Source: Vicinamibacteria bacterium
Lineage (GTDB): Bacteria; Acidobacteriota; Vicinamibacteria; Marinacidobacterales; Marinacidobacteraceae
DNA: 64,000 bases
Direction of reading: 5' to 3'
Assembly: GCA_963668695.2 (NCBI GenBank)
Contig: CAXXLQ010000004.1
Location: 1,152,001-1,216,000 of the forward strand
Shown here in pieces: positions 14,849 through 41,825 of the stretch. Below the pieces are notes generated by a model. The model was given only the letters and a program-made list of their open reading frames with translations, did not search any database and had not been told where the DNA came from. Every line of letters starts with the position of its first letter. Position 1 is the first letter of the stretch. The position numbers and the translations under genes were made by a program.

Positions 14849-14912
14849 CAGTCCGGCATCGCGCGCCAGACCTTCTCCGGGCTCAGCGGGGTGTCGAGGT
14901 GTTCCACCCCGA
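14849..14912 (-). pseudogene. Displaced copy of the 3' end of the molybdo-hydroxylase gene
   Basis: 64 nt matching 15498-15561 with 5 mismatches (GVEHLDTPLSPEKVWRAMPD vs GVEHLDTPLTPEKVWRAMQD). Confidence 0.85.
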
Positions 14913-14974
14913 GCGGGTGAGGACGCCGGGATCAGGGGCTCGGGATGTGCTTTCATATATCGGCATCACACATC

Positions 14975-15193
14975 ATGCGGACGAGCATCTCTCTCCCCGA
15001 CGAGCAGGCCGAGCGGCTCGCGGAGGTGTGTCGTAATCAGGGCATCTCCCGCGCCGAGGCAGTGCGGCGCGCGCTCGCCCGGTATCTCGACGAACATCGG
15101 CGCCGTCGCCAGGAAGACGTGTTCGGGATCTGGCGCGGACGCCACCCGGACGGGCTCGACTACGAGCGCCGGTTGCGGGGAGAGTGGTCCTGA
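14975..15193 (+). CDS. CopG/ribbon-helix-helix antitoxin-like protein (orphan)
   Basis: MRTSISLPD...GISRAEAVRRAL...FGIW...R.EW, a VapB-like pattern. No PIN gene follows. Confidence 0.8.
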   Translation: MRTSISLPDEQAERLAEVCRNQGISRAEAVRRALARYLDEHRRRRQEDVFGIWRGRHPDGLDYERRLRGEWS

Positions 15194-15496
15194 ACGGGAG
15201 CTGCCCGGTGGGCGATGCCGGTCTGAAGACGCCCACCGGGGGAGACCTTCCCGGGGGAGACCTTCATCGTCGGGTCCTCCTGCACACCCCGGCGGTCATG
15301 AAAAAGGCGCGCGGGTGCTTCGGGCAAGGGGAGCGGTGAGTGGTCGCACGATCCGAGGTTGGAGGAGGGTGCGGACTTCACGTTGGCATGACGCCGCATC
15401 ATCGGCGCTGGTTTCGCGCTCCCTCGCGGCCGGCACCATCTGGACCGTTGGCGGTCCCGCCGGATCGCGGTTCCCCGTCGCCTCGGCGTCGAGCGC

Positions 15497-17807
15497 TCAG
15501 TCCTGCATCGCCCGCCAGACCTTTTCCGGGGTCAGCGGGGTGTCGAGGTGTTCCACGCCGAAGGGGCGTAGCGCGTCCATCACGGCGTTGACGACCGCCG
15601 GCGTCGAGCCGATGGTCGCCGCCTCGCCGATCCCCTTGACTCCGAGCGGGTTGACGTGGGTCGGCGTGACCGTTCGGTGCAGTTCGTAGGAGGGGAGCAT
15701 GTCGGCCCTCGGGACCGCGTATTCGAGCAGGGACGGGGTCAGGAAGTTGCCGTCCGCGTCGTAGACCGCTTCTTCGTAGAGTGCCTGCGCGATTCCCTGG
15801 GCCAGCCCGCCGTGCACCTGCCCCTCGGCGAGCAGCGGGTTGATCACCCGGCCGCAGTCGTCCACCGAGATGTAGCGGAGGATCTCGACGGCGCCGGTAT
15901 CGGGATCGATCTCCACCGCGCAGAGGTGGGATCCGAACGGGAAGGTCTCGCCGGGGGGCTTGAAGTCCACATCGGCAGAAAGTTCGGCGGCGGCGCCCTC
16001 GGGGGAGTCCGCCGAGTAGGCGAACGCCGCGATCTCCGACCAGCCGACAGCGCGGGCGGGCGAGCCGGCGACGAAGAATTGCCCCGCCTCGAAGCGGATG
16101 TCCTCGGGAGCCGCTTCCAGGAGCTTGGCGGCGAGCTGCTTTGCATGTTCGCGGACGGTTTCGGCGTTGTTGAAGATCGCCGACCCTCCCACCGGAGCGC
16201 TCCGGCTTCCGAAGGTCCCGATGCCGCGCGGACACTCGTCGGTGTCACCGTGGAGCACCGTCACGTCGTCCATTTGGACGCCGAGCTGCTCCGCGGCGAT
16301 CTGCGCCCACGCCGTCTCGTGTCCCTGCCCGTGCGGCGAGGTGCCGCTCCGAACGGTGACCGAACCGTCGGGTTCGACGGTCACGCCCCCGGCCTCCCAG
16401 GGGCCGAATCCGCAGATCTCCACGTAGCAGGCGAGGCCGATCCCGAGCAGCTTTCCGCCGCCCTCGGCCCGCCGCCGGGCCTGTTCGGCCCGAAGACTCG
16501 CGTAGTCGCCGGCCTCCAGCGCCAGATCGAGCGCCTTTTCGTAGTCCCCGCTGTCGTAGGTCAGCCCCGTCGCCGTCCGGTAGGGGAACTTGTGCGCCGG
16601 GATCAGGTTGCGGCGGCGGATGTCCGCCGGGTCCATCCCGAGCCGGCCGGCCAGCACGTCGAGCGCCCGCTCGATCAGGTAGGTGGCCTCCGGGCGGCCG
16701 GAGCCCCGGTAGGGCTCGTTCGGCGCGGTGTTCGTGAACGCCCCCTCGGCCCGGGCGTGGGCGGAGCGGATGTCGTAGGGACCGACGATCATGCTCCCGG
16801 TGAGGGAGGGAGTGGTGGGTCCGGGCCGGCTGAAGTAGGCGCCCGAGTCGTAGAGGATGTCCAGATCGCAGTGCCGTCACCCGCCCGTCGCGGTCGGCCG
16901 AGACGCCGAGCGTCACGAAGAGGTTTCGGCCGTGGGTGGTGGTCTGGAAGTCCTCGGTCCGGGTGGCGTACCAGCGGACCGGGCGGCCGAGCCGCAGGGC
17001 GAGCCAGGGGACCAGGACCTCCTCGGCGTAGAGGTTCGCCTTGGCGCCGAAGCCGCCGCCGACCTCGGGGGCGATGGTCCGGATGCGTTCCTCGGGGATT
17101 CCCAGGATGCGCGCCACGCTCGACTTCACCCGATGCGCGGACTGGGTGGAGGTCCACATCGTGATCCGGTCGCCGTCCACCCGGGCGGCGACCGCCCGCG
17201 GTTCCATGGCGCTTGGGATCAGGCGCTGGATCCGGAAGTCGAGCGACACCTCGACCTCACCCTGCGCGGCCTCGGGCGCGCCCTCGGGATGGAGTTCCCA
17301 GACGAAGGATCGGTTCCCTGCCACCTCGGGATAGAGGAGCTCCGCGCCCTCGGCGCGCGCCGCCCGGGAGTCGCCGGCTCCGGGGAGGTCCCGGTAGTCC
17401 ACGAAGACCAGCGCGGCGGCGTCGGCCGCCTGTTCGGGCGTCTCGGCGACCACCGCCACCACCGGATCGCCGACCGTGAGGACCTTGCCGTCGGCGAGCG
17501 CCCACCGCGGCGGCAGGTGGAGTTCGGTGAACGCGCCGGCGTCCGGCGCCCGGGCCACGGGGAAGGGCTTTTTCAACGTCGGCAGGATGTCCGCCGCGGT
17601 GAAGATCCCGACGACGCCAGGCGCGGCGGCGGCTTCCTCGCTATCGATCTCGACGATCTCGGCGTGCGGATAGGGACTGCGGACGACCGCGAGATGGAGG
17701 GCGCCGGGAAGCGGGATGTCCGGGGTGTAATGCGCCTGACCGGTGATGAGCCGCGGGTCTTCCCGCCTTCGCACCCGATCGCCGATGGTCTGGGTTCTGA
17801 TTGCCAA
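15497..17807 (-). pseudogene. Xanthine dehydrogenase/CoxL-like molybdopterin-binding large subunit, frameshifted near 16868
   Basis: RREDPRLITG and VGGGFGAK lie in one frame; PYRGSGR, GQGHET and GVKGIGE lie in another. This could be a sequencing error. Confidence 0.85.
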
Positions 17808-17946
17808 GCTGTAACTGCGTCCGAAGGGGAGCGATTCTAGCGATGGCGCCCAGCGCGCCCGTAAACCGACCCCGCAAGCCCGCTCTGTATTAGGCTGCCG
17901 CGCGCCTCAGGTTTCGTCAGTTCCCGCCGTCTCCGTTCGAACCCTC

Positions 17947-22600: not shown

Positions 22601-24301
22601 ATGAAAGTCCGCACTTCCCGGAGAACGTTCATCGAAGCGACCGCGGCCGGCCTCGCCGGCGCCGCGCTCCCCGCATCGCGCGCGGTGGCCGCGCCCGCGG
22701 CCCCCGACGCCGTAGAGCGCCGACGCCTCATCGAACTCGCCCACTTCGGCAAGAAGGCGCCGGCCGAAGGAACCGGCGGGATGGCGATCACCTCGCACCC
22801 GCTCGCGACCCGCGCCGCCGTCGAGGTCCTGCAAAAGGGCGGCAACGCCTGCGACGCGGCGCTCGCCGCCTCGATCACCCAGACCGTGGTTGAACCGCAC
22901 ATGACCACCATCACCGGCTGCCTCTCCCAGATGTATTTCGACCAGGCGACCGGCGAGACGACCTACGTCAACGGCAACGTGAACACGCCGATGGCGCCGC
23001 TTCCCGGCTACGGCGCGCACGACCTCGCCACGGGGCGCGGGGTGGCGGTGCCCGGCTGGTGGGGCGGCTTCGAGGCGGCCCACGACCGCCACGCTTCGCT
23101 GCCGCGAAAAGAACTGATGGCGGACGCGATCGCCTACGCCCGGGGCGGCTTCGAGATGCACCCGTTCCTCTGGGGCGAGGTCTTCATCCAGTCCGAGAAG
23201 ATCGGCCGCACCGCCGCGGGCCGCGAGATCTTCTTCGACGGGCACGCGATCCCCCGCCCCGGCGCGACGCTCTACCAGAAGCAGGCCGCGGACACCCTGG
23301 AGCGGCTCGCCGAGGAGGGGAACGACTACTTCTACCGGGGGGACTTCGCGAAGAAGGTCTGCGAGGTGGTCCAGGCCGCGGGCGGCGTCCTGACCCCCGA
23401 GGACTTCGAACGCTGGGAGCCGCGCTGGCAGGAGCCGGCGTGGGGGTCGTACCGGGATCTCAAGATCGCCGGTTCCCCGCCCCCGGACAACGGCGGCACC
23501 CACATCATCGAGATGCTGCACATGCTGGAGTTCCTCGATCTGGAGGGACTCGGCCCGCCGGTCGAATCCGCCGAGAGCCTGCTCCAGATGATCCGGATCA
23601 GCCACCTGGTCTATTCCGAGGGCGGCCGGCAGAACGATCCCAAGAGCCATCCGCTGCCGCTCGAGACGATCCTCTCGAAGGACTACGCGCGGATGCGGTT
23701 CGACCTGCTCCAGATGGGGCACCCGGTCTCGGGCGCCGGCGAGCCACCCCCGCCCGCGGGCAGCAACCACGTGACGGTGGTGGACGCGGCCGGCAACGTC
23801 TCGACCATCCTCCACTCGTGCATGTCCTACCCGTGGAGCAACGGCCTCTTCGCCGAGGGGGTGAGCATCTGCGCCGCGGGCGCCCACTTCCTGCGGGTCA
23901 TGCCCCGCCCCGGCCACCGGATCTCGGCCTACGTGGCCCCGAACATCATCTTCCGGGGCGACCGGCCGGTGATGGCTTCCGGCTCGCCGAGCGTCAGCCT
24001 GCTCCAGAACGTCCTGCAGAACAGCCTTAACGTGCTGCAGTTCGGGGTGCCGGTGGCGGAATCGGTGAACCGGCCGCGGTTCGGCGGCCCGTCATTGAAC
24101 ACCCCGGGCGCGGTGCTGATCGAGGCGGACTTCCCGGAGAAGATCCGGGAGCAGGCGGCCGAGCGCGGCATCCGGTTCGACGTGGTGAACCCCTGGAACT
24201 GGCACCACGGCTCGTTCGAGGGCATCCACATCGGCGAGGACGGAGTTCGGCGCGCCTGCGGCGATCCGCGGCGCTGCAGCATGGCGGAGGCGACGGCATG
24301 A
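22601..24301 (+). CDS. Gamma-glutamyltransferase (Ntn hydrolase) family, Tat-exported
   Basis: SRRTFIE Tat motif, GGNACDAA, VAVPG, FYRG and CGDPRR. Confidence 0.9.
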   Translation: MKVRTSRRTFIEATAAGLAGAALPASRAVAAPAAPDAVERRRLIELAHFGKKAPAEGTGGMAITSHPLATRAAVEVLQKGGNACDAALAASITQTVVEPHMTTITGCLSQMYFDQATGETTYVNGNVNTPMAPLPGYGAHDLATGRGVAVPGWWGGFEAAHDRHASLPRKELMADAIAYARGGFEMHPFLWGEVFIQSEKIGRTAAGREIFFDGHAIPRPGATLYQKQAADTLERLAEEGNDYFYRGDFAKKVCEVVQAAGGVLTPEDFERWEPRWQEPAWGSYRDLKIAGSPPPDNGGTHIIEMLHMLEFLDLEGLGPPVESAESLLQMIRISHLVYSEGGRQNDPKSHPLPLETILSKDYARMRFDLLQMGHPVSGAGEPPPPAGSNHVTVVDAAGNVSTILHSCMSYPWSNGLFAEGVSICAAGAHFLRVMPRPGHRISAYVAPNIIFRGDRPVMASGSPSVSLLQNVLQNSLNVLQFGVPVAESVNRPRFGGPSLNTPGAVLIEADFPEKIREQAAERGIRFDVVNPWNWHHGSFEGIHIGEDGVRRACGDPRRCSMAEATA

Positions 24302-25557
24302 CCCGGTTGGTTCGACTTTTCCTGTTTCCGGCGGCTCTTCTTGTCGGGTCGTCGGTTTTCGCGCAGGACACGGTGCTCCGCTGCGGGGCGGTGTTCGACG
24401 GCGAGGCCATGACCGGTGCCGGGGACATCGTCGTCCGCGACGGGGCGATCGTTTCCGGGTCGGCGGGCGCCGATGCGGAAGTGGTCGACCTCTCGGGGTA
24501 CACCTGCCTTCCGGGGCTCATCGACCTCCACGCCCACCTCACGATCAACCCGGACACCCTGACCGCGATCGACATGACCCGCTCGAGCGCGGCGCGGGCG
24601 CTCGATGCGCTCCACAACGCCCAGAAGATGCTGGGAGCCGGGTTCACCACCCTGCGGACGCCGGGCGAGTTCGATGGCTGGTACGGCACGATCGACCTCA
24701 AGCACGCCATCAACAGCGGCCAGCACATGGGGCCGCGGCTGCTCGTCGCGCCGCACGCGATCTCGGCCACCGGCGGCCACGGGGACTTCAACAACCTGAT
24801 GGCGGATCTCATGATCGAGACACCGACCCGGATCGCCGACGGGCCGGAGGGGCTGCGCCTCGCAATCCGGCGGGAGTTCAAGTACGGCGCCGACTGGATC
24901 AAGCTGATGATGACCGGCGGGGTCATGTCGGCGGGCGACGACCCGAACGTCAGCACCTACACCGAGGAGGAAGTCCGGGCCGCGGTCGAGGAGGTGCACC
25001 GCCACCAGAAGCGGATCACGGTCCACGCGCACGGCGCGGCCGGGATCAATACTGCGCTCCGCGCCGGGGTGGACTCCGTCGAGCACGCGACGCTGGTGGA
25101 CGCGGAGGGGATTCGGCTTTTCAAGGAACGGGGCGTCCCGATGGTGCCCACCCTCTACGTCATGAACTACATCGTGGAAGAGGGAGAGGCGATCGGCTTC
25201 CCGCGGGAGAGCATCGAGAAGGCGCGCGCCCTCATGGAAGAGCGCGACCGCCGGATCGGGGAAGCATTCGCGGCCGGAGTCCCGGTGGCCTTCGGCTCCG
25301 ACACCATCTTTCCCCACGAGACCGCGGCCCGCGAGTTCGCGGTGATGGTGGGGCTGGGTTTGAGTCCCACGGACGCGCTCCGCTCGGCGATGACGGTGCC
25401 GGCGCGGGTCTTGGGTCTGGAGGACGAGATCGGGCGGATCCAGCCCGGGTTCGCCGCCGACGTGATCGCGGTGGAGGGCAATCCGCTCGACAACATCCGG
25501 GTGATGGAGGATGTCAAGTTCGTGATGCGGGCCGGGCGGGTGGTGAAGTCGCCGTAA
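24298..25557 (+). CDS. Amidohydrolase (Xaa-Pro dipeptidase-like), secreted
   Basis: PGLIDLHAH, TGGHGD, HAHG, EH and FGSD, plus a signal peptide. Confidence 0.92.
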   Translation: MTRLVRLFLFPAALLVGSSVFAQDTVLRCGAVFDGEAMTGAGDIVVRDGAIVSGSAGADAEVVDLSGYTCLPGLIDLHAHLTINPDTLTAIDMTRSSAARALDALHNAQKMLGAGFTTLRTPGEFDGWYGTIDLKHAINSGQHMGPRLLVAPHAISATGGHGDFNNLMADLMIETPTRIADGPEGLRLAIRREFKYGADWIKLMMTGGVMSAGDDPNVSTYTEEEVRAAVEEVHRHQKRITVHAHGAAGINTALRAGVDSVEHATLVDAEGIRLFKERGVPMVPTLYVMNYIVEEGEAIGFPRESIEKARALMEERDRRIGEAFAAGVPVAFGSDTIFPHETAAREFAVMVGLGLSPTDALRSAMTVPARVLGLEDEIGRIQPGFAADVIAVEGNPLDNIRVMEDVKFVMRAGRVVKSP

Positions 25558-31638: not shown

Positions 31639-31741
31639 GACCGCACAGCGCGATGAGCGTCATTCCCGCCATCTGGTTGTGCTGGGCCGGCGGCATGCCC
31701 AAGGTTTCGAGGATCTCCTGTACTTCTCCGACGTCAGCCAA
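31639..31741 (-). pseudogene. N-terminal remnant of a BsuBI/PstI-like restriction endonuclease
   Basis: MADVGEVQEILETLGMPPAQHNQMAGMTLIALCG, coupled to the MTase stop and cut off at the duplicated segment. Confidence 0.65.
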
Positions 31742-33652: not shown

Positions 33653-33733
33653 TCAGCAATAGGCGCGATGCAGAGCGCGGCTCCGGACGCGTCGCCGGAT
33701 GGCGGCGGCCATGTCTCCCATCGGCGGGATCAC
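33653..33733 (-). pseudogene. Possible AbiEii toxin N-terminal remnant
   Basis: GTG overlaps the AbiEi stop; reads ..DMAAAIRRRV.. and then hits an early stop. Confidence 0.35.
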
Positions 33734-34320
33734 ACTGATAGCGCCTCGAGAACCGGGCCGACGAGCGACTTTGCGCGGCAAACCTCGGCCGCGCGCCAGA
33801 CTTCGTCGGAACTCGCTTTGCGCTCACGCAGGGCGTCGCGGAGCGCCTCGAGGGCCACGTCCATGCCGACCAGTCGGCGGAAGCGGAAGCAGTCCACGAC
33901 GGTGCGGGCTGGGCTGGTGATACGCGCGGGAACGCCTTCGAAGACTGTTTTCTCGACCCCGTAGAGCAGCGAGGCTCCGGAGAAGCGGACCACCCTGACC
34001 GGCAGCTCCGGAATGCGGGGCGTGCGGGCCTTGTGCGGGATCGCGATCCAGACATCGCGCGGAAGCTGGGTGCCGATTTCGTAAATGCACAGGGCGGTCA
34101 GCAGACAGACGATGGCGCGCGGGACCCGCACGCACACGGCAGCGTGGGTGTAATGCTCGGTCAATTCGGCCTCAGCGAGGCGGTAGACGCCGCGCGCTAC
34201 GCGCTCCACCGATCCATCGTTCACCAGGCGTCCGAGCGCGCGGGAGTGGACGCCCAGTTCGGCAGCTTCGTGCGCCCGGAAGAAGGTCTTCCCGGCGAGG
34301 TCCGATAGCCCGGCGACACC
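33730..34320 (-). CDS. Type IV TA antitoxin, AbiEi family
   Basis: ERVARGVY, AIVCLLTAL and ITSPARTVVDCFRFR..VG.DVALEAL. Start codon not clear. Confidence 0.85.
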   Translation of the reverse strand, partial: GVAGLSDLAGKTFFRAHEAAELGVHSRALGRLVNDGSVERVARGVYRLAEAELTEHYTHAAVCVRVPRAIVCLLTALCIYEIGTQLPRDVWIAIPHKARTPRIPELPVRVVRFSGASLLYGVEKTVFEGVPARITSPARTVVDCFRFRRLVGMDVALEALRDALRERKASSDEVWRAAEVCRAKSLVGPVLEALSV

Positions 34321-34767
34321 CGCCGAGGAGTGCTGTCCGAACCTATCAGGAGATGCCGCCGACTGCCTCGGTCCAGACCAGACAAGCTCCGACCAGGCAT
34401 CAAGTTGCAGGAGTCCGCTCCGACCATCGCGAACGCGGTCCTTTCCTGTGAACCTGCATCGGTTGCAGGCAGCTCCGACCATCGTGGTCCGGTTCCTTCT
34501 CCCACAACGCGCCCGGTGGACGCTAGTAGATTGCCTGCTCCCGGACACGGTGCGCCCGAGATCGCCCGGCGACAGCTGCCTCTCCATCAAGCCGGCAGGC
34601 ATCTCTGTTCACAATTGCCTACGATAGTCCATCCGCAGAGGGTTGCGCGCCAACATCTGTGCGAGCTTTCGATAGTCCCGCGGATGTCCTAGGCTCTTCA
34701 AGCGACGACCTCCTCGAAGAGGGTTTTCTGTTGACCATCAGCCGGCATCTCTGTGGCATGACTACGA

Positions 34768-34984
34768 CGACCATCTCTCCAGGTGACGGCGAGTTCGCGG
34801 TAATGATGGGGCTGGCGATTCCGCCCGACGGATGCGTATCCTCCGGTCGGCGATGACGGTGGCGGTCGGGTGCTGGGTCTGGAGGGCGAGATCGGCTGGT
34901 TCCACCCAGGTTCGGCGCCTGTGTGGATCGCGGTGGAGGGAATCGGCTCGACAACATCCGGGTGATGGAGGATGTGCGCTTCGT
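34768..34984 (+). pseudogene. Degenerate copy of the 3' end of amidohydrolase 24298-25557
   Basis: Aligns to ~25300-25524 with indels; shared blocks include GCTCGACAACATCCGGGTGATGGAGGATGT. Confidence 0.85.
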
Positions 34985-35220: not shown

Positions 35221-35499
35221 GGCGGTCCCTATACTCGCTGACCCCCACTCAGGAAGGACGGAGGTCCTCGTTCACCGGGAGGTGACTCATGCGAAAGCGA
35301 TTTACCAGGTTCGGCCGCCGGCCTGGCATCGCTTGACCCTGGTGGCTTGGCCGTCGTCACGGGACGCAGTCCCAAACCGGCTCGGCGCGCGCTGGCCGTG
35401 ACCGGCCGGCGGTCCCTATACTCGCTGACCCCCACTCAGGAAGGACGGAGTCCTCGTTCACCGGGAGGTGACTCATGCGAAAGCGATTTACCAGGTTCG
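35221..35499 (+). repeat. Duplicated promoter/RBS/first codons of the TonB receptor gene
   Basis: 35221-35313 and 35408-35499 are identical except for a 1-nt indel. Confidence 0.9.
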
Positions 35500-38342
35500 C
35501 GATCCTTGGGGTCGCGCTAGCGCTCGCGCTGGGTGCAGGAGCTCAGACGTCCACGGTGAGCGACGCCACCGGAGCGGTGCTCCCGGGCGTCACCGTCACC
35601 GCGTCCAGCCCGGCGCTGATCCAGGACCAGGTGGTGGTCAGCGGCGGCCAGGGGACCTACGTCTTCCCGGCGCTCCCCACCGGGGCGTACACGGTCGGCT
35701 TCGCCCTGCCCGGGTTCGGTTCGGTGGTCCGCGAAAACATCCAGATGACCCTGAACACCACGCTCACCGTGAACACCACGCTGAATGTGGGCACCCTCGA
35801 AGAGGTGATCACCATCACCGGCCAGGCTCCGGTGGTGGACGTCAAGACCACCACCACCGGCGTGAACTTCACCGAGGAACTCCTCGAGGACATCCCGAAC
35901 GCCCGTGACATCTGGGCGGCGATGGCGCAGGCCCCCGGCTTCCAGATGGAGGGCTACGACGTCGGCGGCTCCCACATGGGCACCCAGACGGGATTCCAGG
36001 CCTTCGGCTTCGGGGACCAGCACCGCACGATGCTCGAGGGAATCAACGTCACCGAGACGACCTCGGGGAACGCCGGCTACTTCGACTACGGCAGCTTCGA
36101 GGACTTCCAGCTCGGCGGCTCGGGGAACATGGGCGAGACCCACGGACTCGGCGCCTTCTTCAACCTCACGGTGAAGTCCGGCGGCGACCGCTTCAATGGC
36201 GACATCTACGTGGACTTCGAGAACGACAGCACCGTCGGCGACAACGTCCCGGACGCGCTCCGGACCGGCGGCGGGACCAGCGGCCCCTACAAGGCGGGGT
36301 CCCGGGGCCTTGAAGCCGGCAACCCGATCACCCTCCAGAGCGACATCAACATCGGCATCGGCGGTCCGCTCTATCCCGGGAAGGCCTGGTTCTACGGCGG
36401 CTACCGGCTGAACCACCAGGAGAAGCTCACCATCGGGAACCCCGATCCGGCGACCACCCAGCTCGGCAACTGGACCGCGAAGGCGACCTACCAGCTCAGC
36501 GATTCCAGCCAGTTGATCGGTTTCTTCAACCGGCGCACCAAGCTGCAGGCGGAGCGCAACCTGGGGCCGACGATTCCGGTGGACGCCGCCTGGTACCAGA
36601 GTTCGGTGAACAAGCCGATGAAGCTCGGGTACACGAACGTCCTCACCGACAAGGTCTTCCTGAACCTGCAGCTCAGCCACTGGATCAACCAGTTCCCGCT
36701 GTTCTCGACCCAGACGAAGACGGAGAGCGTGGAAGGGCTGCTGCCCGGCCGGCTGGAGGTCAACACGGGCGACATCACCAACGCCCAGAACTACTACCAC
36801 TTGCGCAACGTCACCAAGCCGCAGATCTCCGGCAACCTGACCTACTTTGCGGACGACTTCGCCGGGCAGCACACGCTCAAGATCGGGACCGAGATCTACC
36901 GGGAACGCCGGAAATTCCTGCGGATGCAGCCGGGGGACATCTTCTATCGGGATCGTGACGGCGTGCCTTCCGAGGTGGACATCTACAACACCCCGAACAC
37001 CGGCGTGAACGACATCTTCCTCACCGCGATTTACGGGCAGGACTCCTGGACCCTCAACAACCGGCTGACCCTGAACCTCGGCTTCCGGTTCGACCGCTAC
37101 GTGATGGGCTGGCCGGACCAGTCCATGTCTCCGACCCACTCCGACATCTTCCCGCCGCTCGAAGTGGCGCAGCGGGACGTGCTGACCATGTCGAACATCG
37201 GGCCGCGCCTCGGCGCCGCTTTCGATCTGACCGGGAAGGGCCAGACGGTGGTGAAGCTGTTCTTCGGCCGCTTCTACTGGAACCCGAGCACCACCATCGT
37301 GGATGACGAGAACCCGGTGGGACAGGCCGCCTTCCGCCACGAGTTCAACGACCTGAACGGGAACCGGGTCCTGGACCCGGGTCCGAGCGGCCTCGGCGAC
37401 TCGCCCGAGCTCGGGGAAAAGATCAGCACCCTGGGGGGCGCGGGGTTCGTAACCGTGGACCCGAACCTGACGAACTCCTACGGTCACGAACTGTCGGCCC
37501 ACTTCGAGCAGCAGCTCGCCGACAACTTCTCCTTCCGGGCCTCCTACGTCAACAAGACCTCCCGGAACGGCTACGGGATCGTGGACCTGAACCGCGCCTT
37601 CGCCTACAACGTCCCCTACACCTTCGAAGACCGCGGGCCGGACAACGTGGCCGGGACCGGAGACGACCAGGCGGTCCAACTCATGGACCGCCAGCCGGGA
37701 GTCCCGGAAGACCGCCAGTACGTGAACCCCGGCGCCTACGGGCTTCCGAACCCGGACGGCAACTACCACACCGTGGAGGTGGCGCTGAACCGCCGCTTCG
37801 CGAACCGCTGGATGTTCCTGACCTCGTTCCTGCACACCTGGTCGAACGCCTACCTGCGCACCACGTCCTCGACGAGCGTGCGCGCCGCCGCCCGCTTTGA
37901 CTTCATCGAGGGCACGACCTACGAATGGCGGGCGAACCAGTCGCTCCGCCTGGGGCCGATCGACACCACCTACTGGAACTACAAGCTGGTGGCTCGCTAC
38001 ATCTTTCCCTGGGATCTCGGGGTGAGCGCCTCCTACAAACTCCAGAGCGGGTATGAGACCGGACGCCGCGTCAGCGTGCGGCTGCCGAACGCCGGCAGCG
38101 AGCGCGTGATGCCGGACGGCTACAACGACCGGGCGCCGAACGTCGGCATCTTCGACATGCGCGCCGAGAAGTCGTTCGGCCATCCGGGAGGAGCGACGAT
38201 GGCCCTTCTGTTCGACGGCTTCAACCTGACCAACAGCGCGACGGTGCTCAACTACCGGACCATCTCGGGTAACCGCTACAACGAGATCGTGGCGATTCTC
38301 GACCCCCGGGTGTTCCGGCTCGGCGTCCGGCTCGAGTTCTGA
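35475..38342 (+). CDS. TonB-dependent receptor-like outer-membrane protein (carboxypeptidase-regulatory domain plus Oar-type barrel)
   Basis: D.TGAVLPGVTVT, QDSW....LTLNLG.R.D, PRLG.A.DLTG.G.TV and C-terminal ...GVRLEF. Confidence 0.9.
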   Translation: MRKRFTRFAILGVALALALGAGAQTSTVSDATGAVLPGVTVTASSPALIQDQVVVSGGQGTYVFPALPTGAYTVGFALPGFGSVVRENIQMTLNTTLTVNTTLNVGTLEEVITITGQAPVVDVKTTTTGVNFTEELLEDIPNARDIWAAMAQAPGFQMEGYDVGGSHMGTQTGFQAFGFGDQHRTMLEGINVTETTSGNAGYFDYGSFEDFQLGGSGNMGETHGLGAFFNLTVKSGGDRFNGDIYVDFENDSTVGDNVPDALRTGGGTSGPYKAGSRGLEAGNPITLQSDINIGIGGPLYPGKAWFYGGYRLNHQEKLTIGNPDPATTQLGNWTAKATYQLSDSSQLIGFFNRRTKLQAERNLGPTIPVDAAWYQSSVNKPMKLGYTNVLTDKVFLNLQLSHWINQFPLFSTQTKTESVEGLLPGRLEVNTGDITNAQNYYHLRNVTKPQISGNLTYFADDFAGQHTLKIGTEIYRERRKFLRMQPGDIFYRDRDGVPSEVDIYNTPNTGVNDIFLTAIYGQDSWTLNNRLTLNLGFRFDRYVMGWPDQSMSPTHSDIFPPLEVAQRDVLTMSNIGPRLGAAFDLTGKGQTVVKLFFGRFYWNPSTTIVDDENPVGQAAFRHEFNDLNGNRVLDPGPSGLGDSPELGEKISTLGGAGFVTVDPNLTNSYGHELSAHFEQQLADNFSFRASYVNKTSRNGYGIVDLNRAFAYNVPYTFEDRGPDNVAGTGDDQAVQLMDRQPGVPEDRQYVNPGAYGLPNPDGNYHTVEVALNRRFANRWMFLTSFLHTWSNAYLRTTSSTSVRAAARFDFIEGTTYEWRANQSLRLGPIDTTYWNYKLVARYIFPWDLGVSASYKLQSGYETGRRVSVRLPNAGSERVMPDGYNDRAPNVGIFDMRAEKSFGHPGGATMALLFDGFNLTNSATVLNYRTISGNRYNEIVAILDPRVFRLGVRLEF

Positions 38343-38403: not shown

Positions 38404-38421
38404 GGACGCGGCGCCGCGGTC

Positions 38422-38650
38422 TTAGCCGCCGAACCGCGCCAGTCCGAAGAAGGGCTCCTTCTCGCGCTCGCTGAGCGCCTGCCCGGCCAGCATTTCGCCG
38501 AGGGCCGGGCCGAGCTGGTAGCCGTGCCCGGACCCGCCGCCGGCGATCCAGGCGTTCGCCGCCTCCGGGTGGGTGTCCACGATGACGTGCCCGTCGGCGC
38601 TTTGCTCGTACTGGCAGACCCGCGCCTCGATCAGCGGGGCGCCGCGCATT
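38422..38650 (-). pseudogene. C-terminal fragment of the FAD oxidoreductase
   Basis: MRGAPLIEARVCQYEQ...GGGSGHGYQLGP...FFGLARF matches the end of 40521-41825. Confidence 0.9.
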
Positions 38651-38818
38651 GTCATTGCCCTTTTCTTTCCCGGACGCCTGAGCGCAGGGCCCGGGGACTC
38701 GTACCCGGAGCCCGGGATTCGGCCGGGCCGGTGGGCGTACACTCGATCCGGAGGGCAGCGGTCCCTTGAGCGCCCGCCTGCCCGATTCCCATCCCCGATT
38801 CCCATCAAGGAGAGACCC

Positions 38819-40105
38819 ATGAAGCCACCGGAACACAGCAGTCCATGGAATCGGCGACGCTTCCTCCAGACTACGGCGGCCGCCGGGCTGGCCGCGCTTC
38901 CCGGCGTCGGCGCGCTCGCGAGCCCAGCGGAATCCGGCGGGCGCGCCCGACCCCGCACCCAGCCGGAATCGCCGGGCCCCACCCCGAGCGATCCTCTCGG
39001 CGTCCGGGCCAGTTTTCCGGTCACCGAGGAACTCGCCTACCTCAACAATGCGGCGGTGGGACCGCTGCCGGTGCCCGTCCGCGACGCCCTCCACCGCTAC
39101 GCGGACAACAAGATGCGGCGCCGCGACGCCGCGGCGGGTAGCGAGGCCGTGGCGGGTGCGCGCTCCCGCTTCGCCAGCCTGTTCGGCGCCGAAGAGGACG
39201 AGCTCGCCTTCCTCTACTCCACCAGCGGGGCCGAGAACATCATCGTGAACGCGATGGACTGGCGGCCGGGCGACAACGTGGTCGTGGACGAGCTGCACTT
39301 CGTCACCACCTTCGTGCTCTACCGCGAACTCGAGCGCCGGGAGGGGGTCGAACTGAGGATCGTCCCGTCGCGGGACGGCGTCGTGACGGTCGACGACTTC
39401 GCCGCGCGGACCGACGCCCGGACGCGGCTGCTCAGCGTGGCGTGGGTGTCGAACCGCAACGGCTTCCGCTATGACCTGCCCGCGCTGGCCGACCTCGCCC
39501 ATGCTCACGGGGGCTACCTCTACGCCGACGCCATCCAGGCGTGGGGCACGTTCCCGACCAACCTCCACGACGAGAAGGTCGACTTCGCCTGCGGCAATGG
39601 GTACAAGTGGCTGCACGCGGACTTCGGCTGCGCACCCTTCTACGTGCGCCGCGAGCACCTGGACTGGATGACGCCCGACCGGCACGGGCATCGTCAGGTC
39701 GCCGAGTCGCTGCCCGGGCATCGCTACCGCCTCGAAACCAGCGCGGCCAAGCTCGAGTACGGGAGCCCGGCCTACGGTCCGGTGGCCGCGATGGACGCTG
39801 CGCTCGCGTTTGTCGGGGAGGTTGGGCTCGATCGCATCGCCGGGCACACGCACGCCCTCGCGGGCGAACTGCGCGAGGCCGCCGCGGCGCTGGGGATGCG
39901 GATGTTCACCCCGCCGAAGAACCCGTCCGCCATTGTCAGCTTCTACCATGGGCTCGATCACGAACGGCTGAGCCGGGCGCTCGCCGACGAGGACGTGTCC
40001 GTCACCTTTCAGGAGGACGGGCAACTGCTGCGCGCCGGCCTGGGGATGTTCAACAGCCGCGACGACCTCGACCGGCTGCTGGGGGTGATCCGGCGGCTGG
40101 TGTAG
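38819..40105 (+). CDS. Class V PLP aminotransferase / cysteine desulfurase-like, Tat-exported
   Basis: NRRRFLQ, YLNNAA.GP, DAIQ and GYKWL. Confidence 0.9.
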   Translation: MKPPEHSSPWNRRRFLQTTAAAGLAALPGVGALASPAESGGRARPRTQPESPGPTPSDPLGVRASFPVTEELAYLNNAAVGPLPVPVRDALHRYADNKMRRRDAAAGSEAVAGARSRFASLFGAEEDELAFLYSTSGAENIIVNAMDWRPGDNVVVDELHFVTTFVLYRELERREGVELRIVPSRDGVVTVDDFAARTDARTRLLSVAWVSNRNGFRYDLPALADLAHAHGGYLYADAIQAWGTFPTNLHDEKVDFACGNGYKWLHADFGCAPFYVRREHLDWMTPDRHGHRQVAESLPGHRYRLETSAAKLEYGSPAYGPVAAMDAALAFVGEVGLDRIAGHTHALAGELREAAAALGMRMFTPPKNPSAIVSFYHGLDHERLSRALADEDVSVTFQEDGQLLRAGLGMFNSRDDLDRLLGVIRRLV

Positions 40106-40111
40106 GCCGGC

Positions 40112-40297
40112 CGCGCCGTGAAACCGATGCCGCGCCGTGAAACCGATGTCGCGCCGTGAAACCGATGTCGCGCCGTGAAACCGATGCCGCGCCGTGAAAC
40201 CGATGTCGCGCCGGTGAAACCGACGGTCGGGACCGCCCGTGAAACCGATGTCGCGCCGTGAAACCGATGTCGCGTCGTGGAACCGATGCCGCGCCGG
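40112..40297. repeat. 19-nt tandem repeat, about 9 units
   Basis: GCCGTGAAACCGATG(T/C)CGC repeated. Confidence 0.92.
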
Positions 40298-40328
40298 CAC
40301 GAAGGCAAAAGGTCTGGTCGGGCGGCAG

Positions 40329-40446
40329 TGCGGTGCTCAACTACGAGACCATCTCCGGGGGGACCATCTCCGGGTCGCGGTACAACGAGATCGTCGCCAT
40401 CCTCGACCCGCGGGTCTTCCGGGTGGGCGTCCGGATCGAGTTCTGA
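40329..40446 (+). pseudogene. Second copy of the TonB receptor 3' end
   Basis: VLNY.TISG..YNEIVAILDPRVFRVGVRIEF*, with mostly third-position differences from 38240-38342. Confidence 0.9.
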
Positions 40447-40520
40447 TCCGATCCTGAACCCCGGGGCGCCGGCCTTCGGGTCGGCGTCCCTTTCGGCCTG
40501 ACTCCTCCGCCTGACTCCCC

Positions 40521-41825
40521 TCAGGCGAACCGCGCCAGTCCGAAGAAGGGTTCCTTCTCGCGCTCGCCGAGCGCCTGCCCGGCCAGCATCTCGCCGAGCG
40601 CCGGGCCGAGCTTGTAGCCGTGCCCGGACCCGCCGCCGGCGATCCAGGCGTTCACCGCCTCCGGGTGGGTGTCCACGATGAGGTGCCCGTCGGCGCTCTG
40701 TTCGTACTGGCAGACCCGCGACTCGATCAGCGGGGCGCCCCGCATCGCCGGAAAGCGGCGCTCCATGTAGGTCCGCCCCGTCCGGATGGCTTCCGGGGAG
40801 GGCGTGCGGTCCCCGTTCGTGGGATCGAACGGCGCGCCCCGGGAGTCGTCCGCCACCTTGAAGCCGCGGTAGTTGCTCCCGGGGACTCCGTAGAACAGGC
40901 TCGCCCCCGTCTCGACCCAGACCGGCAGCTCGGCGTCGGTCAGATCGGTGCGGCCGGGAGGCGTGCCGAAATAGAGGATCTCCTGCCGCGTGGGGCTCAC
41001 GAGGGGCGGATCGAATCCGGGGAAGAGTTGCGCGAGCCAGGGGCCGCCCGCAAAGACGAAGAGGTCGGCTTCCAGGGTTTCACCGCTCGCCAGCCGGACG
41101 TCCCGCATTGTCCCGTTCGCGACGGTTCCCGCCGCCGCCTTGGCCTGCCGGTACTCGCCTCCCTCGGCCAGGAAGCCCTCGAGCACCCGCTGGCAGCCGC
41201 GCCGCGCGAGCAGGTAGCCGGCGCTCTTCTCGTAGAGCGCGTAGGCGAGGCCTTCGGGGTTGATCTGGGGGAAGCGGCGCGCGAGGTCCTCGCCGGTCAG
41301 CTCCTCGAAGGGGACGCCGAGGTCGGCGAGGATCGGGACCGCATCGGTCGCGTAGCGGTCCACGCCGTCGCTCATCCAGAGCGCGCCGGTCTCGAAGAAC
41401 AGTTGGTCGTGCCAGCGTTCCCCGGCCTCTTTCCAGATCTCGAGCGCCCGGACCACCATCTCGGAATAGATGCGGTCGGGGCCGTAGGTGGCGCGGATGA
41501 CCCGCGTTTCTCCCCCCGAGCTCGCCCGCGAGTTGCCGGGGCCCCAGGCGTCGACCACGGTGACCTGGGCGCCGCGCCGCAGGAGTTCGAGCGCCGTCCA
41601 GCCGCCAAAAGCGCCGGCGCCCACCACGACGGCGCGGACTCCGCGTCCGGCCTGGGACGCGCTTCCGCTCGCGGTGCGGGCTTTTGCCGTTCCGGCGGGG
41701 GCTTCTGCCGTTTTGCCGGGGTCACTCCCGGCGCCCTCGCCGCAGGCGGCGAACGCCCCGGCGGCAGCCCCCGCGGCAAGTCCGGTCGCGATCGCTTCGC
41801 GGCGTGAAATCCGGCGTTTCGTCAT
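40521..41825 (-). CDS. FAD-dependent oxidoreductase (sarcosine oxidase/DAO family), Tat lipoprotein
   Basis: SRREAI, FAAC lipobox, VVGAGAFG, SSGGETR.IR and GSGHGYK. Confidence 0.9.
   Translation of the reverse strand: MTKRRISRREAIATGLAAGAAAGAFAACGEGAGSDPGKTAEAPAGTAKARTASGSASQAGRGVRAVVVGAGAFGGWTALELLRRGAQVTVVDAWGPGNSRASSGGETRVIRATYGPDRIYSEMVVRALEIWKEAGERWHDQLFFETGALWMSDGVDRYATDAVPILADLGVPFEELTGEDLARRFPQINPEGLAYALYEKSAGYLLARRGCQRVLEGFLAEGGEYRQAKAAAGTVANGTMRDVRLASGETLEADLFVFAGGPWLAQLFPGFDPPLVSPTRQEILYFGTPPGRTDLTDAELPVWVETGASLFYGVPGSNYRGFKVADDSRGAPFDPTNGDRTPSPEAIRTGRTYMERRFPAMRGAPLIESRVCQYEQSADGHLIVDTHPEAVNAWIAGGGSGHGYKLGPALGEMLAGQALGEREKEPFFGLARFA

What the first reader, a model, noticed from the sequence alone, without database searches (positions are those of the whole stretch)
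14849..40747. Recurrent 'gene - cargo - displaced copy of the gene's own 3' region' architecture without any integrase
Seen four times. (a) Mo-hydroxylase end 15498-15561 is copied at 14849-14912 around an antitoxin. (b) Amidohydrolase 25300-25524 is copied at 34768-34984 around about 9 kb. (c) Amidohydrolase 27812-27893 is copied at 31557-31638. (d) The TonB end plus the FAD-oxidoreductase end at 38240-38650 are mirrored at 40329-40747. In (a), (c) and (d) the copies differ mainly at synonymous positions, so they look like alleles from a diverged relative rather than fresh target duplications; (b) is degenerate with indels. Cargo is often TA/RM genes, truncated at the junctions. Inference: repeated additive capture from related strains, e.g. 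homology-facilitated illegitimate recombination or an unknown 3'-end-replacing integration route.
Basis: partly seen in the sequence, partly recalled or inferred. Interest (0 to 1): 0.72.

Follow-up and report, generated by a model that had tools for sequence, protein, structure and literature searches.

The report
Recombination scars: displaced gene-end copies
Short leftover copies of gene ends mark places where this uncultured sponge-associated acidobacterium stitched in DNA from relatives by ordinary recombination instead of a dedicated integrase; the scar type is already known, but it is unusually frequent here.

Summary
All four repeat pairs are real, unique and far beyond chance, but they are not one thing. 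(a) is a clean case. Relatives G004 and G014 have the empty site. G000, G001 and G008 carry a VapBC-type insert (only the RHH antitoxin remains in G000) between the intact Mo-hydroxylase gene and a displaced 68-nt copy of its end, which keeps the original flank. (b) is an old, degenerate fragment shared with G004, at the edge of a defence-island hotspot. (c) is an internal 84-nt piece that fills a junction where a restriction-endonuclease gene was deleted. (d) flanks a core gene (an aminotransferase present in 9 of 9 relatives examined), not cargo.

A genome-wide screen found 15 loci of the type 'intact gene, then a direct downstream copy of its 3' end', against 2, 2 and 4 for the mirror classes and 0 in inverted orientation. 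At 9 or more loci, homology stops exactly at the stop codon. No integrase lies in any of them.

The best reading is integrase-free additive capture of DNA from relatives. It needs one homologous crossover in the gene's 3' part plus one illegitimate joint: a Campbell-type single crossover or HFIR. Comparable scars are described for RM systems and for Rhs/T6SS loci. Chimeric assembly is unlikely. This is a new member of a known kind, of moderate interest.

The parts
13637..14572 (+). Band 7/SPFH gene, convergent neighbour of the Mo-hydroxylase gene (native flank of site a)
   Evidence: Pfam Band_7 3e-32; conserved next to the Mo-hydroxylase gene in relatives
14845..14912 (-). Displaced copy of the last 68 nt of the Mo-hydroxylase gene (stop mutated to TGG). 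It keeps the downstream flank that directly follows the intact gene in G004.
   Evidence: also present in G001 and G008
14945..15193 (+). Orphan RHH (CopG/VapB-like) antitoxin, the remaining cargo of insertion (a)
   Evidence: Pfam RHH_1 3.8e-11; in G008 the homologue is followed by a PIN toxin gene; no PIN remnant in G000
15251..15433 (.). MITE copy inserted later between the RHH gene and the Mo-hydroxylase stop (absent in G001)
   Evidence: 134 other hits in the genome; G000-G001 comparison
15497..17807 (-). Resident Mo-hydroxylase (xanthine-dehydrogenase-family) gene. The repeat partner is 15494-15561. A +1 frameshift near 16877 relative to G004 may be an assembly error.
   Evidence: Pfam MoCoBD_1/2, Ald_Xan_dh_C; frame comparison; mosaic divergence
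24298..25557 (+). Amidohydrolase 2, resident gene of pair (b) (repeat part 25331-25514), core in the genus
25762..26387 (+). Antitoxin-like (DUF6364/CcdA-like) gene plus PIN toxin gene
26606..28051 (+). Amidohydrolase 3, an island paralogue found at this locus only in G000, G001, G004 and G008. The source-like copy of fragment (c) is at 27810-27893.
28061..28662 (-). ParE toxin / Phd antitoxin pair
31555..31638 (+). Fragment (c): 84-nt internal piece of an amidohydrolase-3 allele, lying as filler between the LOG gene start (31540) and the remnant of a restriction-endonuclease gene
   Evidence: 95-96% identical to Amh3 of G000, G004 and G008
31640..31733 (-). Remnant (about the first 90-100 nt) of a BsuBI/PstI-type restriction endonuclease gene, intact in G001, G006 and G011
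   Evidence: 95.6% match to the start of the G001 REase gene; Pfam BsuBI_PstI_RE in the relatives
31734..33392 (-). Eco57I/N6-type DNA methyltransferase, now an orphan
33730..34602 (-). AbiEi antitoxin-like gene without AbiEii
34768..34984 (+). Fragment (b): degenerate piece of an amidohydrolase-2-like gene (aa ~346-409), with both breakpoints shared with G004
35475..38342 (+). TonB-dependent receptor, resident gene of (d2) (repeat part 38257-38342)
38446..38680 (-). Fragment (d1): 3' end (about 222 nt plus stop) of a DAO1-type FAD oxidoreductase gene. It is 94.6% identical to the resident DAO1. The breakpoint is identical in G004.
38830..40105 (+). Class-V aminotransferase, a core gene that lies after the TonB receptor (or its remnant) in 9 of 9 relatives examined; not cargo
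40097..40315 (.). 19-nt tandem repeat array at the junction between the aminotransferase stop and fragment d2
   Evidence: family D4
40361..40493 (+). Fragment (d2): last 86 nt of a TonB-receptor gene plus about 49 nt of its native downstream spacer; seen only in G000
40521..43118 (-). DAO1 (40521-41825) and DAO2 (41838-43118), tandem FAD-dependent oxidoreductase paralogues. Their order is swapped relative to outgroup species.

Best explanation
The repeats are scars of recombination in a hyper-recombining, defence-gene-rich stretch of an uncultured Vicinamibacteria (Acidobacteriota) genome.

The dominant scar has three parts: an intact gene, then extra DNA, then a short direct copy of that gene's own 3' end still joined to the gene's original downstream flank. 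I propose it arises when DNA from a related strain or species is added rather than swapped in. That DNA carries the same gene but a different downstream neighbour. One homologous (RecA-type) crossover in the 3' part of the gene joins one side. The other side is closed by an illegitimate joint. This can happen as a Campbell-type single crossover of a circularised fragment, or as one-ended homology-facilitated illegitimate recombination (HFIR) whose joint lands inside the gene. No integrase is needed.

Afterwards the direct repeats allow excision by homologous recombination and gene conversion, and the cargo decays.

Applied to the window:
- (a) is such an event. A VapBC module is now reduced to its antitoxin, with a later MITE insertion.
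- (b) is an older one at a defence-island hotspot.
- (d) is either two such events that re-added the aminotransferase to an allele lacking it, or one long target duplication.
- (c) is different: an 84-nt filler at the deletion that removed a restriction-endonuclease gene.

Shown: the anatomy, the empty sites, the directionality, the absence of recombinase genes, and the mosaic genes. Inferred: the crossover-plus-illegitimate-joint mechanism, the route of DNA entry, and the circular intermediate.
For: 1. Empty and filled sites.
- (a): G004 and G014 have Band7 and the Mo-hydroxylase gene adjacent, with one copy of the 68 nt. G000, G001 and G008 have fragment + RHH.
- M24 peptidase/HTH locus: single copy in G009, adjacency in G014.
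- AcrB/RM locus: contig C1 has a 941-nt repeat (96.9%) around 9.4 kb of RM genes. The roughly 99.5%-identical C4 strain has one copy.

2. The fragment keeps the native flank, where this could be tested: (a) against G004, AcrB against C4, and the GntP fragment in G009 against G008.

3. Directionality. Among 55 direct resident+fragment loci, 15 are '3' end, downstream'. The other end classes hold 2 (3' end, upstream), 2 (5' end, upstream) and 4 (5' end, downstream). Binomial P = 5e-5, or 4e-4 after dropping one satellite locus and counting (d) once. Of 8 inverted-orientation loci, 0 are at a 3' end.

4. Homology ends at the stop codon in both copies at 9 G000 loci and at G008's Amh3 duplicate, sometimes with different stop codons. 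This is expected for two gene ends from different contexts, and not for a random staggered target duplication.

5. Reciprocal additive structures at GntP.
- G009 has GntP, then DUF2442, then a 131-nt GntP fragment, then GFO.
- G000 and G001 have GntP, then GFO, then a 419-nt GntP fragment, then DUF2442.
- G008, G014 and G004 have plain GntP then GFO.
- In the first ~100 nt of the repeat the fragments are genus-typical, while the residents of G000/G001 are divergent.

6. Repeat length varies at the same gene: 68 nt versus about 885 nt at the Mo-hydroxylase gene (G000 vs G011), and 419 versus 131 nt at GntP. This argues against a fixed att site.

7. No integrase.
- 45 window ORFs.
- 50 ORFs from the variable segments of 9 relatives, with only one ISL3 transposase, in G010.
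- 34 ORFs at 7 other loci.
- Genome-wide there are 6 tyrosine and 0 serine recombinase matches, none between a resident and its fragment.

8. Import of diverged DNA by homologous recombination is visible. G000's Mo-hydroxylase gene differs by 22-25 per 100 nt from G001 and G004 at gene positions 1700-1900, where G001 and G004 differ from each other by 2-4. A Mo-hydroxylase/Fer2 operon is 97-98% identical across species whose flanks are 85-95% identical.

9. Experimental precedent (passages read). In E. coli, 56 of 60 presumed HFIR clones were single crossovers of circular molecules, and the 14 clones sequenced carried 109-950 bp duplications of the homologous gene end (PMC3240628).

10. Ku, ComEC and DprA genes are present.
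Against: - No donor-recipient pair gives a joint with microhomology. The one joint inspected (G009 GntP) has a 27-nt filler and no clear microhomology.
- Canonical HFIR deletes recipient DNA rather than duplicating it (PMC3240628), so the duplication needs the circular or single-crossover variant, and no circle was observed.
- In the AcrB case the resident repeat is identical to the single-copy strain, and the fragment is the 3%-diverged copy. This fits only if the crossover lay at the far end of the repeat, or if the single-copy strain is a secondary deletion.
- In (d) and at the sulfatase locus the 'cargo' is conserved in all relatives examined. The model then needs alleles lacking those genes, and none was found among the genomes searched.
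- Breakpoints shared between species make (a), (b) and (d1) old, so the divergence between copies cannot be assigned to a donor.
- pN/pS of 0.33-0.63 does not separate a foreign allele from decay in place.
- ComEC and DprA also ring in 10-11 of the 14 control genomes, so they say little about competence.
Confidence: 0.55

Rival explanations
1. In-place 'insertion with long target duplication' (Nobusato 2000 / Furuta 2010 sense). Cargo was ligated into a widely staggered break, both repeat copies come from the recipient's own sequence, and later divergence plus gene conversion produced today's 81-95% identity.
For: - (d) fits best. The duplicated unit (TonB end, spacer, DAO end) spans the whole intergenic spacer on both sides of the aminotransferase.
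- For (a), the fragment-resident differences (6/68 in G000, about 10/66 in G001) are no larger than the differences between the G000 and G001 fragments (about 10/66, read). The copies could therefore have been identical at insertion.
- Furuta et al. report 46-423 bp repeats that often span the stop of the target gene, with no mobility genes (PMC2853133).
- Gene conversion between copies is seen.
Against: - Homology stops at the stop codon at 9 or more loci. Only (d) extends more than 3 nt past it, which a random staggered cut does not predict.
- Several pairs have different C-termini or different stop codons.
- In GntP the resident is the divergent copy and the fragment the genus-typical one.
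Confidence: 0.2
2. Decayed integrase-borne islands, or cis-mobilisable remnants. A site-specific recombinase once integrated elements that carried a replacement 3' end (as recalled for e14/phage 21 in icd and for tRNA-targeting islands), and the integrase gene was later lost or acts in trans.
For: - The repeat runs exactly to the end of the gene, as in elements whose attP restores the gene (recalled, not tested).
- One strain-variable 14-kb island on contig C1 does carry a phage-type integrase.
Against: - There is no integrase in any cargo examined.
- The genome holds only 6 tyrosine-recombinase matches, none inside a resident-fragment interval, and no serine recombinase.
- Many unrelated target genes are involved.
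- Repeat length differs at the same gene: 68 vs about 885 nt, and 419 vs 131 nt.
Confidence: 0.08
3. Ordinary decay of tandem or segmental duplicates and paralogues. The fragments are what deletions left of second gene copies.
For: - The region holds many paralogues (three amidohydrolases, two DAO genes) and other gene remnants. In G008 these include remnants of the LOG, HSDH and TonB-receptor genes.
- 31 of 55 direct resident+fragment loci are internal pieces.
- (c) is an internal piece.
Against: - Random deletion predicts the four end classes equally, but 15, 2, 2 and 4 are seen, with none inverted.
- No second copy of the cargo is present.
- Relatives have empty sites with a single copy.
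Confidence: 0.1
4. Assembly artefact. Co-assembly of strains placed pieces of a second haplotype next to the first.
For: - The assembly does contain strain variants. Contig C1 is about 99.5% identical to C4:304-421 kb, C3 is a variant of C4:3505-3538 kb, and the head of C4 overlaps its tail at about 99%.
- Single-base indels differ from public contigs: at 28920 in 4 of 4 runs, and in fragment b in 2 runs.
Against: - The copies are 81-95% identical, far below the 99-99.7% strain level.
- (a) recurs in the independent assemblies G001 and G008, and (b) and (d1) recur in G004 with identical breakpoints.
- Contigs of public runs from 4 studies cover 30, 30, 30 and 29 of 30 bins of window 24000-41500 at 95% identity or more.
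Confidence: 0.03

Closest known systems
Insertion with long target duplication of restriction-modification genes (Nobusato et al. 2000, seen only as a cited reference; Furuta, Abe & Kobayashi 2010, PMC2853133, passages read)
   Same: The insert is under 20 kb, carries no integrase or transposase, and is flanked by direct repeats of tens to hundreds of bp. The repeats align with a single copy at an empty site in a related genome and often span the stop of the target gene, leaving it intact. The AcrB/RM case on contig C1 and the Type ISP/GmrSD case have RM cargo.
   Different: - Most cargo here is not RM: an antitoxin, an HTH gene, metabolic operons, DUF2442.
- The repeats are more diverged (80-97%, against mostly 93-100%).
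- Homology ends exactly at the stop codon.
- Resident and fragment can have different C-termini.
- The phylum is Acidobacteriota.
Displaced ('orphan') 3' ends in Rhs/CDI loci and T6SS effector-immunity arrays, attributed to HFIR-like insertion (Kirchberger et al. 2017, PMC5361080, passages read; the Rhs/CDI papers seen only as its references)
   Same: An incoming module recombines through the conserved upstream part of a gene and shifts the old 3' end, with what follows it, downstream. This gives strings of orphaned 3' regions without an integrase.
   Different: Those genes are polymorphic toxins with a constant 5' core and a variable 3' toxin domain, and selection keeps the immunity genes. 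Here the genes are ordinary enzymes and transporters, and the fragments look like non-functional scars.
HFIR and single-crossover integration of circularised fragments (Amarir-Bouhram et al. 2011, PMC3240628, passages read; de Vries & Wackernagel 2002, Prudhomme et al. 2002, Meier & Wackernagel 2003 seen only as references)
   Same: One homologous junction and one illegitimate junction. In the E. coli assay the 14 clones sequenced carried 109-950 bp duplications of the homologous gene end, the same size range as here (50-941 nt).
   Different: Canonical HFIR deletes about as much recipient DNA as it inserts. No experiment exists for this lineage. The donor, the entry route and a circular form are all inferred.
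Integrative elements that restore the 3' end of their target gene (e14 / phage 21 in icd; tRNA-gene islands).
   Same: An intact gene, then the element, then a displaced native 3' fragment, with homology running to the end of the gene and the copies differing largely at silent sites.
   Different: Those need an element-encoded integrase and a fixed crossover site. Neither is present here.

Membership tests
Insertion with long target duplication (criteria as written in PMC2853133) | Insert flanked by direct repeats longer than 30 bp | tested here: met
   (a) 68 nt, AcrB/RM 941 nt, M24/HTH 76 nt, GntP 419 nt
Insertion with long target duplication (criteria as written in PMC2853133) | Repeats align with a single-copy sequence at an empty site in a related genome | tested here: met
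   (a) in G004 and G014; M24/HTH in G009; AcrB in strain C4. Not met for (d) or for the sulfatase locus, where all relatives carry the intervening genes.
Insertion with long target duplication (criteria as written in PMC2853133) | No other mobility genes in the insert; insert under 20 kb | tested here: met
   Pfam scans; recombinase scans of the genome
Insertion with long target duplication (criteria as written in PMC2853133) | Insert contains both R and M gene homologues (a criterion of their screen) | tested here: not met
   Cargo of (a) is an RHH antitoxin. Among the loci examined, only the AcrB case (methylase + ResIII helicase) and the Type ISP/GmrSD case are restriction-related.
HFIR / single-crossover additive integration | One junction lies within sequence homologous between donor and recipient | tested here: met
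   The resident-fragment repeat is the homologous segment. Donor-type arrangements exist in relatives: RHH next to the Mo-hydroxylase gene without a fragment in G009 and G006, and GntP followed by DUF2442 versus GntP followed by GFO.
HFIR / single-crossover additive integration | The other junction is illegitimate, usually with 3-10 bp of microhomology | tested here: inconclusive
   Only one joint could be compared with a donor-like sequence (G009 GntP). It has 27 nt of filler and no clear microhomology.
HFIR / single-crossover additive integration | Canonical HFIR: recipient DNA next to the anchor is deleted | tested here: not met
   Recipient sequence is retained and appears duplicated. This matches the single-crossover outcome instead (PMC3240628).
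HFIR / single-crossover additive integration | Dependence on RecA and on uptake of foreign DNA | not testable with these tools
   ComEC, DprA and Ku genes are present. The first two are near-universal in the control genomes.
Site-specific integrative island with a 3'-end-restoring attP | Integrase encoded in the element | tested here: not met
Site-specific integrative island with a 3'-end-restoring attP | Fixed crossover point, hence constant repeat length at a given target gene | tested here: not met
   Mo-hydroxylase gene: 68 nt (G000, G001), about 51 nt alignable (G008), about 885 nt (G011). GntP: 419 nt versus 131 nt.
Site-specific integrative island with a 3'-end-restoring attP | Repeat extends to the end of the target gene | tested here: met
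Rhs/CDI/T6SS orphan arrays | Target gene is a polymorphic toxin with a conserved core and variable toxic C-terminus, and the displaced end is followed by an immunity gene | tested here: not met
   Resident genes are a Mo-hydroxylase, amidohydrolase, TonB-dependent receptor, DAO oxidoreductase, M24 peptidase, sulfatase, GntP permease and AcrB.

The most novel reading that the evidence does not exclude
The displaced-end cassettes may form a general, recombinase-free gene-shuttling system. Each cassette would carry a functional replacement 3' end of a conserved host gene as its 'attachment site'. It would flip out as a circle by homologous recombination between the two copies, as the C1/C4 AcrB polymorphism and the G004 empty site would then show. 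It would re-enter any relative by a single crossover. The exact stop-codon boundaries and the strong 3'/downstream bias would then reflect a dedicated or selected design rather than chance scars. In sponge-associated Acidobacteria this route would move defence, TA and metabolic modules between species.
Probability: 0.12. Interest if true: 0.7.

Novelty: new member of a known kind. Interest (0 to 1): 0.4.

Why it matters
The finding suggests that in an uncultured, sponge-associated acidobacterial lineage with few integrases, new genes are often added next to conserved genes by plain homologous recombination plus one illegitimate joint. The process leaves a readable scar: a displaced gene end with its old flank. 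Such scars could be used to polarise gene gain in metagenome-assembled genomes, to find recombination hotspots and defence islands, and to avoid annotating the fragments as genes or mistaking them for assembly errors. The process itself is already described for RM systems and polymorphic-toxin loci, so the gain is in breadth (ordinary genes, TA and metabolic cargo, a new phylum, 15 loci in one genome), not in principle.

Tried and rejected
- A whole-genome self-BLAST timed out. I replaced it with 50-kb chunks, which find only repeats no more than 25 kb apart.
- The genome-wide screen uses crude ORF and GC3 rules. It missed (a) itself, includes one locus that lies in a satellite (974711), and counts (d) twice.
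- Public-run contigs are short unitigs. They cover the region, but the listed pieces do not prove that one molecule bridges every junction, so no bridging is claimed for (c) or (d2). Low-support joints with sides under 30 nt were ignored.
- No PIN remnant was found in G000 beside the RHH gene (tblastn).
- Small ORFs next to the junctions gave no Pfam hit.
- I looked for microhomology at the G009 GntP joint and found none clear.
- No sequence motif common to the cargo junctions of different loci was apparent on reading. No formal motif search was run.
- Prudhomme et al. 2002 is not held in the library.
- The scan's earlier notes hold nothing for this window.
- dN/dS could not separate 'foreign allele' from 'decay in place', because only 4-33 differences per pair are available.

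Full report
CONTEXT

The window is C4:1152001-1216000 of a 4.1-Mb, 4-contig, 68% GC assembly. Close relatives carry record titles such as 'Candidatus Marinacidobacterium sp.' and 'Vicinamibacteria bacterium' (Acidobacteriota MAGs). Public runs that hold the stretch are mostly labelled sponge metagenome.

The assembly contains strain variants:
- Contig C1 is about 99.5% identical to C4:304-421 kb, apart from island-sized indels.
- C3 is a variant of C4:3505-3538 kb.
- The first 148 kb of C4 overlap its last 130 kb at about 99%.

OBSERVATION

The four repeat pairs are present at the stated places with E-values from 3e-20 to 3e-108 inside the window. In the whole assembly each fragment has only its partner, plus a distant paralogue for c and d1.

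Gene map by Pfam:
- Band7 (13637-14572)
- RHH antitoxin (14945-15193)
- Mo-hydroxylase (15497-17807, minus strand)
- ABC transporter genes
- Amidohydrolase 1
- 32-nt satellite arrays
- GGT
- Amidohydrolase 2 (24298-25557)
- Antitoxin + PIN
- Amidohydrolase 3 (26606-28051)
- ParE/Phd
- GlmS-like gene
- LOG
- Eco57I-type methylase
- AbiEi
- TonB-dependent receptor (35475-38342)
- Class-V aminotransferase
- Two DAO oxidoreductases

No integrase or transposase family was hit among the 45 ORFs scanned.

CASE (a)

In G004 and G014 the Band7 and Mo-hydroxylase genes are adjacent (gaps of 285 and 204 nt). The 68 nt occur once there; in G004 the same 68 nt were hit by both window copies.

G001 and G008 have the fragment next to an RHH gene, as G000 does. 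In G008 the RHH gene is followed by a PIN toxin gene. G000 has no PIN remnant. Its extra 262 nt relative to G001 include a MITE with 134 other genomic hits.

The fragment is followed by the sequence that follows the intact gene in G004, whereas the resident gene is followed by unrelated sequence 3 nt after its stop. G011 has an independent event at the same gene: a partial copy of about 885 nt (aa 136-430) with the outgroup-type C-terminus, then 2.1 kb, then the resident gene with a new short end.

The two copies differ at 6 of 68 positions in G000 and about 10 of 66 in G001. The G000 and G001 fragments differ from each other at about 10 of 66 positions (read). The event is therefore old, or has been shared between species.

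CASES (b) AND (c)

Between amidohydrolase 2 and the TonB receptor, every genome of the genus examined has a different set of defence genes: Type I RM, AbiEi/AbiEii, a BsuBI/PstI-type RM, Fic, PIN, Phd/ParE and a DUF4143 ATPase. None of the 50 ORFs scanned is an integrase.

Fragment (b) is shared by G000 and G004 with both breakpoints identical. It lacks the last ~40 nt of the gene and is degenerate: 21 indel nt and pN/pS of 0.63. G000's resident gene shares a short patch with the fragments that no other genus member has, which suggests gene conversion.

Fragment (c) is an internal 84-nt piece. It lies between the LOG start codon and the first ~90-100 nt of a restriction-endonuclease gene that is intact in G001, G006 and G011. 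It therefore fills the junction of a deletion that removed the endonuclease and left the methylase as an orphan. It is 95-96% identical to amidohydrolase 3 of G000, G004 and G008, so its source cannot be named.

CASE (d)

The aminotransferase follows the TonB receptor, or its remnant, in 9 of 9 relatives examined. A match to it was listed in 14 of 15 same-genus genomes. It is a core gene, not cargo.

The DAO fragment (about 222 nt) ends at the same base in G000 and G004. It is 94.6% identical to G000's DAO1 and 93-94% identical to DAO1 of G001, G004 and G008.

The TonB fragment carries about 49 nt of the spacer that follows the TonB gene in all 9 relatives (83-88% identity). It is seen only in G000, beside a 19-nt satellite.

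The layout is: TonB, spacer, DAO fragment, aminotransferase, TonB fragment, spacer, DAO1. This is what one long target duplication of an allele lacking the aminotransferase would give. It is also what two successive one-sided captures would give. No such allele was found among the genomes searched.

BEYOND THE WINDOW

Contig C1 has a full AcrB gene, then 9.4 kb encoding an N6/N4 methylase and a ResIII helicase, then a 941-nt copy of the AcrB 3' part (96.9% identity). The C4 strain has one copy, identical to the resident copy over the repeat, but its last ~100 nt and its flank resemble the fragment's.

I screened C4 for direct repeats of 50-1500 nt, at least 75% identical and no more than 25 kb apart, in which one copy lies in a long ORF and the other does not. 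The results were:
- 55 loci in direct orientation.
- 15 of these are '3' end, fragment downstream'. They include b, and d counted twice.
- The other end classes hold 2 (3' end, upstream), 2 (5' end, upstream) and 4 (5' end, downstream).
- 32 are internal pieces, or 3'-end pieces lying inside the resident ORF.
- 8 loci are in inverted orientation, none at a 3' end.
- Binomial P = 5e-5, or 4e-4 after trimming.

At 9 loci, and at G008's 880-nt amidohydrolase-3 duplicate, homology ends at the stop codon in both copies, in some pairs with different stop codons.

Cargo at the loci examined: an HTH gene, GmrSD, a GFO/IDH/MocA oxidoreductase, and a Mo-hydroxylase + Fer2 operon. There is no integrase.

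Relatives show the following:
- Empty sites for M24/HTH (G009, G014).
- The whole Type ISP/GmrSD island is absent in 5 of 5 relatives.
- The sulfatase 'cargo' is present in 5 of 5 relatives. It is 97-98% identical across species whose flanks are 85-95% identical.

The GntP locus is the most telling:
- G008, G014 and G004 have GntP then GFO.
- G009 has GntP, DUF2442, a 131-nt GntP fragment, then GFO.
- G000 and G001 have GntP, GFO, a 419-nt GntP fragment, then DUF2442.

Each of the two alternative downstream contexts has been added to the other. In each case the fragment stays with the older flank. In the first ~100 nt of the repeat the fragments are genus-typical and the residents of G000/G001 divergent. 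A block of about 150 nt is 100% identical between G000's two copies, which points to gene conversion.

MECHANISM

The following argue against a site-specific system:
- The events are directional.
- The native flank stays on the fragment.
- Repeat length varies at one gene.
- Many unrelated genes are targeted.
- There are no recombinase genes. The genome holds 6 tyrosine-recombinase matches, none inside a resident-fragment interval, and no serine recombinase.

They also argue against random paralogue decay. Homology that ends at the stop codon argues against a simple staggered target duplication, except perhaps in (d).

The lineage clearly imports diverged DNA by homologous recombination, as the mosaic Mo-hydroxylase gene shows. 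It encodes Ku, ComEC and DprA.

The closest tested process is one homologous crossover plus one illegitimate joint. In E. coli, 56 of 60 presumed HFIR clones were single crossovers of circular molecules, and the 14 clones sequenced carried 109-950 bp duplications of the gene end (PMC3240628, passages).

The same scar type is described in two other settings:
- 'Insertion with long target duplication' of RM genes, with repeats that often span the stop codon of the target (PMC2853133, passages).
- Shifted 3' ends in T6SS and Rhs loci, attributed to HFIR (PMC5361080, passages).

I therefore read the architecture as integrase-free additive capture by this route, with confidence 0.55.

Open points:
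- No circle and no microhomology joint were seen.
- The AcrB polarity fits only with a distal crossover or a secondary deletion.
- The alleles needed for (d) and for the sulfatase case were not found.

ARTEFACT QUESTION

The copies are 81-95% identical, against 99-99.7% between the co-assembled strains. Cases (a), (b) and (d1) recur in independent assemblies of other species. Contigs of four public runs from four studies cover 30, 30, 30 and 29 of 30 bins of window 24000-41500. Those contigs are too short to prove bridging of (c) and (d2).

Single-base indels against the public contigs suggest some assembly indel errors. One base at 28920 differs in 4 of 4 runs, and several indels in fragment b differ in 2 runs. 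The Mo-hydroxylase frameshift may be such an error too.

VERDICT

This is a new member of a known kind. Interest is 0.4.

The scan had noted the 32-nt satellite family and the MITE family of this genome on other windows. It had not noted this architecture.

Noticed in passing
window 21310-22560: Two adjoining arrays of 32-nt tandem repeats (about 23 and 14 or more units, two unit types) between amidohydrolase 1 and GGT. They match the strain-variable satellite family noted earlier in this genome.
   Followed up: partly
window 40097-40315; also C4:3219978 onward: A 19-nt tandem array sits exactly at the junction next to fragment d2. A roughly 20-nt satellite follows the displaced sulfatase fragment. 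Satellites seem to accompany these junctions.
   Followed up: no
window 9321-9553, 12739-13134, 48274-48392, 50043-50243, 60567-60712; 15251-15433: Copies of dispersed MITE-like families. The 15251-15433 copy has 134 other hits in the genome and is absent at the same site in G001.
   Followed up: partly
window 35052-35100 (also 25587-25656, 3518-3609, 47130-47305): A REP-like hairpin element of about 49 nt, with dozens of 96-98% identical copies in several genus genomes, in tandem clusters in G001. It gives very high depth in public runs.
   Followed up: no
window 35221-35313 and 35408-35499: A 93-nt direct duplication (98.9%; one gap, no mismatch), 187 nt apart, that includes the ribosome-binding site, start codon and first ~25 nt of the TonB-receptor gene. 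It is either a 5'-end/upstream counterpart of the 3' scars or an assembly stutter.
   Followed up: no
window ~16877 and 28920: A +1 frameshift splits the Mo-hydroxylase gene relative to G004. One base at 28920, in the GlmS-like gene, is absent in contigs of 4 of 4 public runs. Both are probably indel errors of the assembly.
   Followed up: partly
G000 contigs C1, C3 and both ends of C4: The assembly holds strain haplotigs (C1 vs C4:304-421 kb, C3 vs C4:3505-3538 kb) and a terminal overlap of about 130 kb in C4 at about 99% identity. Contamination is listed as 9.3%.
   Followed up: partly
window 15497-17807 (gene positions 1700-1900 from the 5' end): G000's Mo-hydroxylase gene has a patch of 200-300 nt that differs by 22-25% from G001 and G004, which differ from each other by 2-4% there. 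This looks like an import from a distant relative.
   Followed up: partly
C4:3215967-3218970 (L040:3468-6471): A Mo-hydroxylase + 2Fe-2S operon is 97-98% identical in G001, G004 and G008, while the flanking genes are 85-95% identical. This suggests a recent spread across species.
   Followed up: no
window 40521-43118 versus relatives: The order of the two DAO paralogues is swapped between the G000/G001/G004/G008 subclade (DAO1 next to the aminotransferase) and the outgroup species (the DAO2-like gene next to it).
   Followed up: no
G008 locus (L017/L018): G008 has lost most of the TonB-receptor gene here. It carries remnants of the LOG, homoserine-dehydrogenase and TonB genes in a row, plus a full and a partial (aa 190-481) amidohydrolase 3.
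   Followed up: partly
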